Assembly: GCA_951406725.2 (NCBI GenBank)
Contig: OX597817.1
Coordinates: forward strand, 117,056,001-117,120,000
DNA length: 64,000 bases
From: Octopus vulgaris
Lineage: Eukaryota
Reading direction: 5' to 3'
Shown: in pieces, positions 12,490 to 35,547 of the stretch
Layout: each line of letters opens with the position of its first letter
How positions within the stretch are numbered: position 1 is the stretch's first letter
The notes under the pieces: model-generated
Database searches by the model: none
What the model was told of the DNA's origin: nothing
The model's input: only the letters and a program-made list of their open reading frames with translations
Program-made: the position numbers and the translations under genes

Positions 12490-12914
12490 ACAATGGGCTG
12501 GAGTATTTCTATTTTGGATGTATTTGGGGTACTTAGTTGTGCTCATGACTTAGTGTTTGCTTCTTCCATGAGTATGAGTAAGTATCTCATTTATTTCTTT
12601 TGCCACATGTATCACTGACGAAGGGAGGGCTGTAATGAGCTAACCCTGAAATCGGAACGATATGGTAATAATGGAATTTAAAAAAAAATTTCTGTCGACC
12701 TTTTTTCGAGTAGCGTGCGTATTGTGAAAAAATTATATGGTTAATGGACAATATGTCCAATTTTTCGGCATATTTGGCATTAGCAATTTTTTCGTTTGTC
12801 CTTATTTATGAATTGTTTATAAATTTAACCTTTAAAGGTATTTTTTAATATGCTGGCTTTGATAAAATTTTTTTGAAAATAATTTTTTTTCGAAAAAACT
12901 TTATCCTACATTAG
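12490..12914 (+). mobile_element. Solo Penelope-like terminal repeat (pLTR) between AT-rich/(TA)n tracts
   Basis: homologous to the right arm of 34735-35547, same TTATCCTACATTAG end; contains a hammerhead motif. Confidence 0.75.
12610..12667 (+). ncRNA. Type I hammerhead ribozyme motif
   Basis: stem I TATCA/TGGTA; CTGACGA; stem II AGGG/CCCT; GAAA; stem III ATCG-gaa-CGAT; AUA cleavage triplet ending at 12662. Confidence 0.8.
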
Positions 12915-13114
12915 ATATATGTATATATATATATATATATATGTGTGTGTGTGTGTGTGTGTGTGTGTGTGTGTGTGTGTGTATGTATATATATATATAT
13001 ATATGTATGTATATATATATATATATATGTATATATATATATATATATATATATATATATATATATATATATATATGTAATTGTATACCACCATATCCCC
13101 TCACAAGACCTAAG

Positions 13115-13595
13115 TGAGCCTTTGGTTAGAATTTAACAGGAGACACTTGTCCAATTTTCCACACGGTTGGACTGAACCTAGAACTATATGGTTGAAAAGC
13201 AATCTGTTTACTACACTGCTAGGCCTGCAACTGCGTGGCTGTGTGGTAAATAGCTTGCTTCCCAACGACATGGTTCCATGTTACTTCGACTGTGTGACAC
13301 CTCGACCTAATGTCTTGTACTATACCTTGGCCAATGATCAACTAAAGGTTTTTGTTTGGATATGGGAGATGCAAACAAAAATAACCCACATGAGATCTAT
13401 GTGTGCCTTTGCGCGCACGCGCGTTTGAGTGTCTGTTTTCCTCCTGCCACTGGAAAATAACTACGGTTGGTAGAGACCCACAGAATAAGTACCAGGCTTT
13501 TAAATAGATACTATCAAGGGTCTATTCGTTCGAATAAAACTCTTCAAGGCGGTGCCTTAGCATGGCTATAACCTAATAACTGAAATAAGGAAACG
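13115..13595. mobile_element. Two diverged head-to-head tRNA-SINE copies (13115-13225 minus, 13232-13595 plus)
   Basis: GTGGCTGTGTGGTAA head and GGACTGAACC B-box complement, as in 39819-40217. Confidence 0.65.
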
Positions 13596-13740
13596 ATATG
13601 TATTACACATATAATAATACATGAATATTTTATAAATAATATATTATGTATAGCGCAAAAATATTATATATGAATATATATAAACAAACATATATATATA
13701 TATATATATATATATATATATATATATATATATATATATA

Positions 13741-13940
13741 TGTTAATCCAAACAAGAAAACACAAGAAAAACACAACAACGCGAGGACGTGGAACAAATA
13801 AAGTATTATTGGATGATCGGGAAAGAAGGGAAGAAGGAGGGTTTAACGTTTCGAGCGGAGCGCTTCGTTGGAAACATAGGAGAAGGAAAGATCCTAAGAA
13901 GGGAAGACAGAGGAAAAAAGTCGCCAGCGGTACTCACGAG
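13741..13940 (-). mobile_element. PLE terminal-repeat fragment with a degenerate minimal hammerhead (13841-13875)
   Basis: reverse-strand homolog of 27460-27655; GTTT-CCAACGA-AGCGCTCCGCTC-GAAAC-GTT-AAAC; (TA)n on both sides. Confidence 0.75.
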
Positions 13941-14779
13941 ATATATATACATATACATACATATATATAATATATATGTATATACATACATGCACATATA
14001 TATATATATACATACATATACATACATATATATAATTTGTATGTATATGCATATCTATCTATCTATATATATATATATATATATACATATATATATATAT
14101 ATATATATATATATATAATTTGTCTATACTTTAGGTTAGCAATTTCAACTCATTTGGAGGGATAATTCCAGGTTTCATGAGATAAAATTAATACGAACTA
14201 CCGATATCTGTCGTTCTCAGTCAAAACGGGGCTGTTCGTTTCGCCTACCTTTGAACTATACTGTATGCATTCTCACACATACATCGTTACAAGGACTCTC
14301 GTGAAAGACGTAGTGCCGCAACGAAACAAAATCTCTTAAGAACAAGTACACATTCAGCATATCACTTCGTTAATGTTTACATGATAGATTAATTTTAACT
14401 TAAATTTTGTGCCATGAATATAAGTTGTATTATTAATGTAAAATTATTTGTTTATTATCTTCATTAGTTTAGTTATAAAGCGCAGGTTTGTTTTCGACGT
14501 TCAAATTACAGACAAAATACGTAAATTTTATTAAGTGATTCCATCATATTCTATTGTATGAGTTCAAAATAGGATGCAGAGTAACCTCACAATATACACA
14601 AATAATTTAATCAGAAGATTTTCAAAGCATATAGACTTAAATATTGCTTCCAAATAATTCGTAGTGGTGATAACATCCTTCAGTATTTTTAGACAAATTT
14701 CAGCGATGTGACTTTATTAAAGTTAAGCTACACATAACAGACCTATCGAGGTTTCACACGAAAGTCGTATTTGCCGTTG

Positions 14780-15120
14780 AAACTTTAATTTTTCGGAAAG
14801 AAAGCTATCCACATTTGAACCATATTAGCGCATATAATCAAATCATGTATTTTATATCACCACCAACAGCATTTCACGTAATGCTGTCGACGAGGTGACG
14901 TACTTAAAAGGATTTTCCAAAGGGTGTTTTCACCAGAAGAATGTTACTGCCAGCTAGCCTGATGAATTGTCTCTACCATTTCTTTTATCCTGGCAAAGCG
15001 ACAAGGTTGTTAACGAATAGTATTGCCAAGAAATCGGCGAACAGCACTGAGAATGGCAATGCTGAACTCTAATGTAGAGTAATAGACAGGGGCTAATTCT
15101 TCTCCATGACAATTCTAACC
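14780..15120 (+). pseudogene. Mariner transposase relic, part upstream of the LINE insertion
   Basis: E*YCQEIGEQH*EW...NRQGLILLHDNSNR resembles mariner YCQQL...RKGVILLHDNARPH. Confidence 0.7.
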
Positions 15121-33280: not shown

Positions 33281-33645
33281 GGGCTCATATATATATATGA
33301 TAACATTAATTGTATTGACAGCGATAATGATACTAACTTTAATGACACTTTGGAAACTATTATGAAGTAATATAATGTACTATTGACTATGTATATTTAC
33401 ATCTAGGTATTAATTTGTGTGTGTAACTTATCACAATATTAAGTCGAAAAACTGAGACATTGGGTGTGGAACACATATATATGTTTACTGATTTATATTA
33501 TTTATTTATATCATTACGTAAATGTATATTTTTTTATATGTATAGGAGTGTGAGTATATGCACTCATATGTATATATATATGTTGTATTATGGGTACGCA
33601 CCCACACCCATGAGGGTATATGCGTAGACTGTGTTATATTACATA

Positions 33646-33772
33646 ATCTCCGAAGAAGCCTTGTGATATTTTTGTTAATGTCTCATTTATATCTATATAT
33701 TGACCAACCATAAAGGGCTAATATTGGTAAAATGAGACATAATTATCGACATGGCCGAAACACCTGTAAGAT
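33646..33772 (+). ncRNA. Hammerhead-like motif with ~100-nt stem II and CCGAAGA core
   Basis: ATCT/AGAT stem I; CCGAAGA; stem II GCC..GGC enclosing ATGTCTCATTT/AAATGAGACAT; GAAAC-acct-GTA. Confidence 0.6.
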
Positions 33773-34080
33773 CTAATTTATACTTATATTTATGTTTACT
33801 TGTATTTATATTCTTTTTTATATATATTCTAATTATTATACAACATTACTCTTATATGTACACTTTTTTATGTACATTCCTTTATGTAGACTGATTTGTT
33901 CTGCTTTGTATATTTAACCCTACAGTCTCTTATGTGGTGGTCTAATAATGTATGTGATTGAGTATTATCTGGTAATTGATATTTGATTTAGATGTATTTC
34001 TCCATTTTCTTATCTTGTATGTATATATATATATATATATATATATATATATATAAATCTACATATACATGTATATGTAT

Positions 34081-34578
34081 GTCAGGTCACTTTCGAGTGC
34101 TACTGGTAACATGTAACCCAGTACAATCTGTTGCATGGTCGGGTCATCGGCGACTAAACTGGCAACCCCACCGAGCTTTCTTGGTGAGGGTGTTTCTTGG
34201 ACACTTTGCGGGAAAAAAAACAAAACCCGTCAAAGGGCGGAGGAACTCTTGAGAGTCAACGGCCATCCAATAAATGTCTTAAGGATGTATCATGCGCGGG
34301 GACATAGAAATAATCGGATTGAATACCTGATCGCGCGTTTAAACCATTGGGAGTGAAGGACTCCTAGCCTTTGTTAGGGCATCCTACTAGGAGAAGGACT
34401 CTTAGCCTTTGTTAGGGCATCCTTCTAGGTAACTCAGGTAACTGGGATAACTCCGACATAAAACCTGCGGCTCAGTGGTTACCGATGATGTTGACTTGTT
34501 CTTCTTTTCGTATTATGGCTGCTGTTGCTTAGTGAGTGTGATTGACTCAGTGCACAGCCTTTTCTCACTTTAAAAAAA
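34081..34578 (+). mobile_element. Short non-coding retroelement, probably RTE-related, with ~38-bp internal duplication and A-tail
   Basis: GC-richer island; TAGGGCATCC..CTAGGAGAAGG motif duplicated at about 34357-34430; ends TAAAAAAA. Confidence 0.45.
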
Positions 34579-34734
34579 CATATTCTTGCACAGGCATTGC
34601 ACGATAACAACATTGATTAAGCTTCGTGCAATGGATATACTCGATAACGAGGGAGCAGCCAACATGTATGTACACATATATATACACACACACACACACA
34701 CACATATATATATATATATATATATATATATATA

Positions 34735-35547
34735 TAAAATTTACAAGATAAGGGCAAAAGAAAAATTCTAATGCCAAATATGCAGAAAAAAAGACAAAAC
34801 TTTTCAATAACCATTATAATTTATGCGTCTCCAAACAAACCGATAGAAATCTCTAAAAAATTCGTTATTATGTATTGGTCCAATTTCGGGGTTAAGTAAT
34901 AATAATTTTTCCCCTCTTCAGCGGCAAATACGCGAGATATAAGAGAAATACTTACTCATGCTCATCGAAAAAGTAAGCACTAATTCCTGAGCAGACATAA
35001 GTAGCCCAAATATATCCAAAATACAAAAAATCTTCGACACATCTCGAGGTACGTGTGATTCGAACTAGAAACTATCACAGAATGAGAGAATCCGGAAGTG
35101 AACACTATTCTCATTCTGTGAAAGTTTCTAGGTCGAATCACACGTGTCTCGAGATGTGCCGAAGATTTTTTCTATTTTGGATATATTGGGCTACTTATGT
35201 CTGCTCAGGACTTAGTGCATACTTTTTCCATGGGTATGAGTAAGTATTTCACTTATATCTCGCGTATTTGCCACTGAAGAGGGGAAAATTTATTATTAAT
35301 TAACCCCGAAATTGGACCAATACGGTAATAACGAATTTTTTAGAGATTTCTATCGGTTTGTTTCGAGACGCATAAATTATAATGGTTATTGAAAAGTTTT
35401 GTCTTTTTTTCGGCATATTTGGCATTAGAATTTTTCTTTTGCCCTTATCTTATAAATTTTTTATAAATTTAACCTCTAAAGGTATTTTTTGATATGCTAA
35501 CCATTGATAAAATTTTTATCCCGCAAAAAATTTTATCCTACATTAGT
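34735..35547. mobile_element. Fold-back (inverted pLTR) element with ~360-bp arms, two hammerhead motifs and an ~85-bp unpaired right tail
   Basis: 34735-35090 is the reverse complement of about 35107-35461; hammerheads at 34868-34927(-) and 35268-35328(+); (TA)n flanks. Confidence 0.85.

What the first reader, a model, noticed from the sequence alone, without database searches (positions are those of the whole stretch)
12490..35547. Hammerhead family showing compensatory covariation within this window
Three homologous copies: 12610-12667(+), 35268-35328(+) and 34868-34927(-). The core CTGAnGA/GAAA and the AUA site are retained while helices co-vary: stem II AGGG/CCCT vs GGGG/CCCC; stem III ATCG/CGAT vs ATTG/CAAT; innermost stem I pair A-T vs G-C (consensus of the two arms). 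The stem II loop is completely different between subfamilies. This is direct evidence of selection on RNA structure. The 12.6-kb copy looks intact; each arm copy has a stem I lesion.
Basis: partly seen in the sequence, partly recalled or inferred. Interest (0 to 1): 0.72.

Follow-up and report, generated by a model that had tools for sequence, protein, structure and literature searches.

The report
Hammerhead retrozyme with Penelope insertion footprint
The three motifs are decaying copies of a small, protein-free jumping repeat with thousands of copies in this genome; its predicted self-cutting RNA kept its base-pairing as the family diversified, and its insertions look as if a borrowed Penelope-type enzyme likely copied it, which makes it a new member of a known class.

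Summary
All three type I hammerheads are at the stated positions, and the covariation is real. The window holds only two independent lineages, because the two arms come from one insertion.

Across the genome there are 2,302 exact motif matches against 0 in the control. In eight subfamilies, 11 of 18 pairs change on both sides. Helix III is self-complementary to its centre, which is a double-hammerhead signature.

Each hammerhead sits in a 466-496 nt non-coding unit. Copies form head-to-tail partial tandems, insert in (TA)n, and carry inverted 5'-truncated arms. They end at two fixed sites 85-100 nt apart inside a conserved multi-branch 3' RNA fold. This is the Penelope-like insertion footprint. 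No copy joined to an ORF was found.

Genomic copies decay neutrally, so selection acted on the replicating source lineage and not on these copies.

Verdict: a non-LTR retrozyme (non-autonomous Penelope-like element), a new member of a known kind. Cleavage, circular RNA and the partner enzyme are untested. This scan reported similar retrozymes earlier on other DNA of this genome.

The parts
12492..12914 (+). Subfamily A1 retrozyme copy, 5'-truncated (unit positions 73-496 of 496), between (TA)n tracts
   Evidence: 95% to natural full unit L002:1429-1924
12485..12494 (-). About 10-nt inverted remnant beginning at the internal fixed end; inferred to be a very short second arm
   Evidence: read from the sequence; the same remnant is at the left end of L002 and L003
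12610..12667 (+). Type I hammerhead, A1; core 12615-12621, helices IIa and IIb, predicted cut after 12662
12762..12908 (+). Predicted 3' RNA domain: closing helix, three hairpins, then a terminal hairpin; holds the internal fixed end
   Evidence: (z -3.2 here; z -4.6 to -6.8 in A, B and C copies elsewhere)
34735..35109 (-). Inverted, 5'-truncated arm of a subfamily B1 insertion; begins at the internal fixed end next to (TA)n
   Evidence: (L031)
34868..34927 (-). Type I hammerhead, B1, stem I broken by a private deletion and substitution
35111..35546 (+). Forward arm of the same B1 insertion (unit positions 35-471), ending at the fixed 3' end, then TTATA and (TA)n
35268..35328 (+). Type I hammerhead, B1, A.C mismatch at the innermost stem I pair; predicted cut after 35322
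35408..35541 (+). Predicted 3' multi-branch RNA domain plus terminal hairpin, B1
   Evidence: z -5.0

Best explanation
These are copies of a 466-496 nt non-coding tandem retroelement (a non-LTR retrozyme) whose predicted hammerhead likely cuts multimeric transcripts into unit-length RNA that likely circularises, and which a Neptune-type Penelope reverse transcriptase/endonuclease likely copies into (TA)n microsatellites. SHOWN: a non-coding unit; thousands of dispersed copies; head-to-tail partial tandems; inverted 5'-truncated arms; two fixed 3' ends; (TA)n flanks; covariation among source lineages; neutral decay of inserted copies. INFERRED, step by step: (1) A source locus with two or more units is transcribed. 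(2) Two hammerheads pair through their palindromic helix III and cut, whereas a lone hammerhead is predicted to misfold with its core paired to the helix III 5' strand, so a monomer would be stable. (3) The monomer is ligated to a circle. (4) The borrowed enzyme binds the conserved 3' multi-branch fold, nicks both strands of (TA)n, and primes at two fixed UA-rich sites using about 5 nt of microhomology. (5) Synthesis runs through the hammerhead site and often past one full unit, giving a forward arm and an inverted arm from the same template. The window's copies have one hammerhead per strand and are probably dead ends.
For: Copy number: 1,105 and 2,302 exact pattern matches against 0 in reversed-pattern controls. 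Tandems and ends: 203 exact head-to-tail junctions and 684 exact (TA)n-flanked ends for A plus B. Of 230 segments, 139 stop at the full 3' end, 51 at the internal site (46 of these followed by TA repeats) and 40 elsewhere. Of 72 segments reaching the unit start, 61 abut the unit's own end by a strict rule and about 7 more carry a mutated own end. 7 of 59 loci have two same-strand hammerheads at unit spacing. Microhomology: insertion ends keep the first five letters of the next unit (ATATA in A, TTATA in most B), so the template continues past the junction. Loose ends in four public runs fall at the same two sites. No pile-up of 5' ends at the cut site: 5 of 158 lie within 10 nt, against about 6.6 per bin. 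Arms of one insertion share rare variants: 44 vs 4.9 expected for inverted arms and 33 vs 3.5 for tandem arms. Covariation. Helix III is self-complementary to the centre in all 8 subfamily representatives, with duplex -8.9 to -19.2 against hairpin -1.3 to +2.4 kcal/mol; the active monomer fold is not the minimum-energy fold in any of them. The 3' fold has the same closing helix, last inner hairpin and terminal hairpin in A, B and the about 43% diverged C family. Intact 781-aa RT plus GIY-YIG Neptune-type ORFs exist in the genome and show the same footprint: (TA)n, two ends about 40 nt apart, TA microhomology.
Against: There is no cleavage, RNA or circle data. The partner is not identified: the Neptune families fetched share no detectable terminal sequence with units A or B, carry minimal variant hammerheads instead, and have a tail of about 40 nt, not 85-100 nt. 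Shared variants between arms could also come from a tandem source array or from later gene conversion. One locus (L064) has arms from two different subfamilies. Minor subfamilies (A2, A4, B3; 2-5 copies each) were defined partly on hammerhead letters; only A, B and C are clearly separated by the flank-only tree. The measure 'pairs with a two-sided change' (10) was reached by 83 of 500 shuffles, and the shuffle control ignores relatedness. Two majority states break a pair (A1/A2 at I.6; C at IIa.1). Core invariance between A1 and B1 alone is not significant (p=0.21). Energies ignore tertiary contacts. A related Penelope protein primes without homology and needs no hammerhead cleavage in vitro (PMC11167929).
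Confidence: 0.7

Rival explanations
1. The element and enzyme are the same, but the template is the uncut linear tandem transcript. The hammerhead was kept for another step, such as trimming or release of the transcript, and no circle is needed.
For: Read-through of the cut site and more-than-unit-length inserts fit an uncut multimer equally well. In the anole Penelope system unprocessed RNA was the dominant substrate (PMC11167929). 8 of 9 Xenopus retrozyme dimers did not cleave in vitro (bioRxiv 10.64898/2026.07.22.740005).
Against: About 3 junctions per 10 TA-flanked ends (203 vs 684) and shared rare variants between tandem units are expected from rolling on one circle. Circles were shown for coral, mussel and axolotl retrozymes (PMC7229834). 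Neither point is decisive.
Confidence: 0.2
2. The copies are solo pseudo-LTRs: 5'-truncated ends of an autonomous protein-coding Penelope-like element.
For: The insertion anatomy is that of Penelope-like elements (PMC8557442 passages). Only about 190 loci were inspected out of thousands.
Against: 0 of 72 unit starts were preceded by an ORF or a shared foreign 3' UTR. tblastn with three Neptune proteins hit 7 of 187 loci; the two inspected were separated from the unit by (TA)n. The longest stop-free frame in a unit is 73-76 aa.
Confidence: 0.05
3. The hammerheads are kept by host-level selection at their genomic sites, as domesticated regulatory ribozymes.
For: 79 of 118 parsed copies still have an intact core and inner pairs (partly selected by pattern searches).
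Against: Private changes hit the core and stems at the background rate (9 vs 10.9 and 24 vs 26.9). Two of the three window copies are broken.
Confidence: 0.03

Closest known systems
Metazoan non-LTR retrozymes (Cervera and de la Pena 2020, PMC7229834, passages and Discussion read; Li, Clavereau and Pollet 2026, bioRxiv 10.64898/2026.07.22.740005, parts 1-3 of 5 read)
   Same: Non-coding, low-GC (33%) unit with one canonical type I hammerhead; occurs as monomers and short tandems; thousands of copies; Penelope-like elements proposed as the mobiliser.
   Different: The unit is longer than the coral, mussel and axolotl examples (220-390 nt) but within the 51-972 bp range of Li et al. It is mostly dispersed 1-2.6-unit inserts. 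Helix II is extended with a co-varying distal helix. Inverted arms, two fixed ends and a conserved 3' multi-branch fold are not described in the parts I read (the terms 'inverted' and 'microsatellite' do not occur in PMC7229834). Expression, cleavage and circles are untested here.
EN+ Penelope-like elements, Neptune clade (PMC8557442 passages; PMC4209133 part 1 of 4; PMC11167929 parts 1-2 of 4)
   Same: Partial tandems, inverted 5'-truncated copy, two alternative 3' ends ('tail'), microsatellite targets, and a hammerhead with palindromic helix III suited to a dimer.
   Different: No ORF. The hammerhead is full-size, not minimal. The tail is about 85-100 nt instead of 30-40 nt. Ends show about 5 nt of TA microhomology, whereas the anole Poseidon protein initiates at a non-homologous site.
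Non-autonomous Chlamys elements such as MRC1 (PMC8557442 passage)
   Same: Non-coding elements that form pLTRs and head-to-tail insertions using Penelope-like machinery.
   Different: Those generally share 3' sequence with an autonomous family, and most Chlamys elements lack canonical hammerheads. Here no such sequence link was found and the hammerhead is conserved.

Membership tests
Canonical type I hammerhead ribozyme | Core CUGANGA...GAAA and NUH cut site | tested here: met
   All three window copies; majority core in all 8 subfamilies; AUA in A and B, AUC in C
Canonical type I hammerhead ribozyme | Helices I (about 6 bp), II (4 bp) and III, supported by covariation | tested here: met
   11 of 18 pairs two-sided; score 0.448, 0 of 500 shuffles. 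C has an A.A mismatch at the base of helix II.
Canonical type I hammerhead ribozyme | Loop 1-loop 2 tertiary contact | tested here: inconclusive
   Internal loops lie 5-6 bp out on helix I and 4 bp out on helix II, where such loops are expected; the contact itself was not modelled
Canonical type I hammerhead ribozyme | Match to an Rfam hammerhead model | tested here: inconclusive
   No hit at E<=10 for copy A. The RF00163 genome search scored only 73 candidates and returned 6 loci of other families. The 45-position model lacks the extended helix II.
Canonical type I hammerhead ribozyme | Site-specific self-cleavage | not testable with these tools
   Needs a bench assay
Metazoan non-LTR retrozyme | Short non-coding unit, GC under 45% | tested here: met
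   496 and 466-471 nt, GC 33-34%, longest stop-free frame 73-76 aa
Metazoan non-LTR retrozyme | Tandem units, each with a type I hammerhead | tested here: met
   203 exact junctions; 7 of 59 loci with two hammerheads at unit spacing; three in L086/L097. The window's copies are not tandem.
Metazoan non-LTR retrozyme | Expressed as unit-length linear and circular RNA | not testable with these tools
   Only assembled contigs were available
Autonomous EN+ Penelope-like element | ORF with RT and GIY-YIG endonuclease | tested here: not met
Autonomous EN+ Penelope-like element | Partial tandem and inverted 5'-truncated copy | tested here: met
Autonomous EN+ Penelope-like element | Optional 30-40 nt tail between two 3' ends | tested here: inconclusive
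   Two fixed ends are present but about 85-100 nt apart; the Neptune family in this genome shows about 40 nt
Autonomous EN+ Penelope-like element | Microsatellite insertion bias | tested here: met
   684 exact ends in (TA)n; 46 of 51 internal ends
tRNA-derived SINE | tRNA-like head | tested here: not met
   ARAGORN found 0 genes in L002, L045 and L159; only a B-box-like 9-mer is seen in A and B

The most novel reading that the evidence does not exclude
The family is a natural record of a Neptune-type reverse transcriptase rolling round a single ribozyme-made RNA circle from both nicked strands of (TA)n. It starts at two fixed UA-microhomology sites inside a conserved four-way-junction plus hairpin domain, which would be the first defined cis-recognition structure by which animal retrozymes borrow Penelope machinery. 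A dimer-only, self-inhibited hammerhead protects the circle.
Probability: 0.4. Interest if true: 0.65.

Novelty: new member of a known kind. Interest (0 to 1): 0.42.

Why it matters
How animal retrozymes get back into the genome has been proposed but not shown (PMC7229834 Discussion; bioRxiv 10.64898/2026.07.22.740005). This family supplies testable parts: a covariation-supported hammerhead with a predicted dimer switch, a conserved 3' RNA fold that contains two mapped start sites, and intact candidate enzymes in the same genome. As a finding it is ordinary in kind. Hammerheads in Penelope-related animal repeats are well known, and covariation in such a family is expected.

Tried and rejected
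(1) Rfam scans gave no hammerhead hit. The whole-window list was dominated by microsatellite and palindrome matches to miRNA models, and 150 of 160 rows were shown.
(2) Search for an autonomous partner. 30 GIY-YIG loci and 8 extended loci share no terminal sequence with units A or B, apart from separate insertions of the B and C families. Wide-spaced hammerhead pairs held no ORF. The tail-motif pattern returned only family C (59 of 59 listed). RF00163 returned other families.
(3) Expression: no RNA holder listed. Contigs from 4 of 21 runs were laid and show only that the family and its two ends occur in runs labelled with four organisms.
(4) The idea that the tail is a second, rewired hammerhead, prompted by earlier notes, was rejected. 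No GAA precedes the would-be helix III, and the UGAUAA letters pair in the terminal hairpin. An alternative pseudoknot pairing there was not resolved.
(5) A linear cleaved monomer as the main template was rejected: there is no excess of 5' ends at the cut site, and many copies read through it.
(6) tRNA head: none. Endless ORF in the tandem unit: none.
(7) Rows dropped: 2 duplicate and 3 unparsable copies (118 of 123 used); L023 as a duplicate; L010, L015 and L053 (off unit spacing or antisense fuzzy matches). One search used 25 hand-picked copies, and MAFFT shifted helix IIb of family C by one column.
(8) Literature. Four searches listed no paper on this family. Repeat databases and the supplements of PMC8557442, PMC4209133 and PMC7229834 were not seen and could list it.
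Full report
OBSERVATION. Copy A (12610-12667) has 5/4/4-bp helices, an intact core and a predicted cut after 12662. B(+) has an A.C mismatch at the innermost stem I pair. B(-) has lost stem I through a deletion and a substitution. A descriptor gave 0.03 hits per shuffled window, and 0 with stem I required. Rfam does not detect the motif. The homology extends over about 420 nt at 72% identity between A and B, so the hammerhead is part of a larger repeat.

THE ELEMENT. The genome is 2.8 Gb. DNA searches had about 3,000 first-look candidates each, and patterns gave 1,105 and 2,302 exact matches against 0 in controls. 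The unit is 496 nt (A) or 466-471 nt (B), 33-34% GC, with no stop-free frame over 76 aa and no tRNA gene. A third family, C, about 43% diverged in aligned flanks, was found through a shared tail motif and has its own hammerhead.

INSERTION ANATOMY. Of 230 segments, 139 end at the full 3' end, 51 at an internal site about 85-100 nt upstream, and 40 elsewhere. 46 of the 51 internal ends run into TA repeats, and these are mostly the inverted arms. Of 72 segments that reach the unit start, 61 follow the unit's own 3' end by a strict rule and about 7 more follow a mutated own end; none follows an ORF. Genome-wide there are 203 exact head-to-tail junctions and 684 exact (TA)n-flanked ends. Insertion ends keep the first five letters of the next unit (ATATA in A, TTATA in most B). 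The template therefore continues past the junction and offers a short match to the target. Contigs of four public runs show loose ends at the same two sites. These samples favour long copies, because the DNA searches return the best matches.

COVARIATION. A structure-anchored parse of 118 copies in eight subfamilies shows two-sided changes at 11 of 18 pairs. Between subfamilies 18 extra states keep pairing and 2 break it; within subfamilies 40 keep and 80 break (p=2e-6). The pair-count tool on 25 chosen copies gave 92.7% paired cells and score 0.448 (0 of 500 shuffles; slid controls at most 0.129), although the number of two-sided pairs was reached by 83 of 500 shuffles. The flank-only tree separates A, B and C; the small subfamilies rest partly on hammerhead letters. 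Within the window the evidence is one comparison, because the two B arms share 6 rare variants against 0.38 expected. Private changes in 59 loci found by DNA similarity hit the core (9 vs 10.9 expected) and stems (24 vs 26.9) at the background rate. Selection therefore acted while the element replicated, not on the inserted copies.

DIMER SIGNATURE. Helix III is self-complementary to its centre, where a hairpin cannot close, in all eight representatives. The predicted duplex is -8.9 to -19.2 kcal/mol against -1.3 to +2.4 for the hairpin. In none of them is the active monomer fold the minimum-energy fold; in most the core pairs with the helix III 5' strand. This matches the double-hammerhead arrangement described in PMC4209133 (part 1 of 4). 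It is a prediction that ignores tertiary contacts. Window copy A has a private change here (duplex -6.7).

3' DOMAIN. The last 130-150 nt fold into a closing helix, up to three inner hairpins and a terminal hairpin in A, B and C copies (z -3.2 to -6.8). Reading the family folds, the closing helix and the terminal hairpin keep pairing with different letters in C. The internal fixed end lies in the second inner hairpin. I infer that this is the enzyme's recognition domain; that is untested.

PARTNER. The genome has many intact 781-aa RT plus GIY-YIG ORFs with a C-x4-C-x2-C linker, the Neptune hallmark named in PMC8557442. They insert in (TA)n, have two ends about 40 nt apart and show TA microhomology, so they are the likeliest source of the enzyme. 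They share no detectable terminal sequence with A or B. Neptune-like fragments lie in 7 of 187 family loci; the two inspected are separated from the unit by (TA)n. The partner remains inferred.

MECHANISM. The likeliest route is: transcription of a source locus with two or more units, dimer-hammerhead cleavage, ligation to a circle, then priming from both nicked strands at two fixed sites with synthesis running round the circle. 5' ends are spread evenly, with 5 of 158 within 10 nt of the cut site, which excludes a linear cut monomer as the main template. Arms of one insertion share rare variants about nine times more often than controls (44 vs 4.9 inverted, 33 vs 3.5 tandem), as expected from one template. 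A tandem source or gene conversion would do the same, and L064 has arms of two subfamilies. An uncut linear multimer remains the main rival (PMC11167929).

COMPARISON AND VERDICT. It meets the sequence-level definition of a metazoan non-LTR retrozyme and works like a non-autonomous Penelope-like element. It is not an autonomous one. Four paper searches listed nothing on this family, but supplements and repeat databases were not seen. Earlier notes of this scan describe similar 360-533 nt retrozymes with the same two-armed footprint elsewhere in this genome. Sequence look-ups did not link them to this family, and they are not independent support. Verdict: new member of a known kind, interest 0.42.

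Noticed in passing
window 38053-39057 (-): Decayed Neptune-type RT/GIY-YIG fragment (tblastn E 4e-65 to the L133 protein), 2.5 kb from the B insertion and not joined to it.
   Followed up: partly
window 58872-59185: Inverted repeat that is the 3' end of another Neptune-type family (L113/L119 type), with a variant minimal hammerhead: U3-A8 core and GCAA in place of GAAA.
   Followed up: partly
window 40312-40834: Near-perfect palindrome with 261-nt arms (99%, 1-nt spacer), responsible for the top Rfam miRNA matches; identity unknown.
   Followed up: no
window 10603-12204 and 15286-17154 (+); 42394-46743 (-): Two near-identical LINE-like RT frames flank copy A; a further LINE-like element with several frames lies at 42-47 kb (labels from recalled motifs, not searched).
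   Followed up: no
L128:906-5672, L131, L105-L122, L133: Young Neptune-type family with an extra upstream ORF (no Pfam hit) and an intact 781-aa RT/EN ORF. Related families carry minimal hammerheads with U3-A8 or CCGA cores; U3-A8 is described in PMC4209133.
   Followed up: partly
unit positions about 15-70 of A and B (window 35040-35150): Conserved CACTTCCGG and a B-box-like GTTCRAATC near the unit start, possibly promoter elements (labels recalled); no A box or tRNA fold was found.
   Followed up: partly
L064:1345-1961: The two arms of one insertion belong to different A subfamilies, suggesting occasional use of two templates.
   Followed up: no
L227, L228, L231: Another hammerhead family (RF00163 hits at 34-36 bits) with a long branched insertion in helix II.
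   Followed up: no
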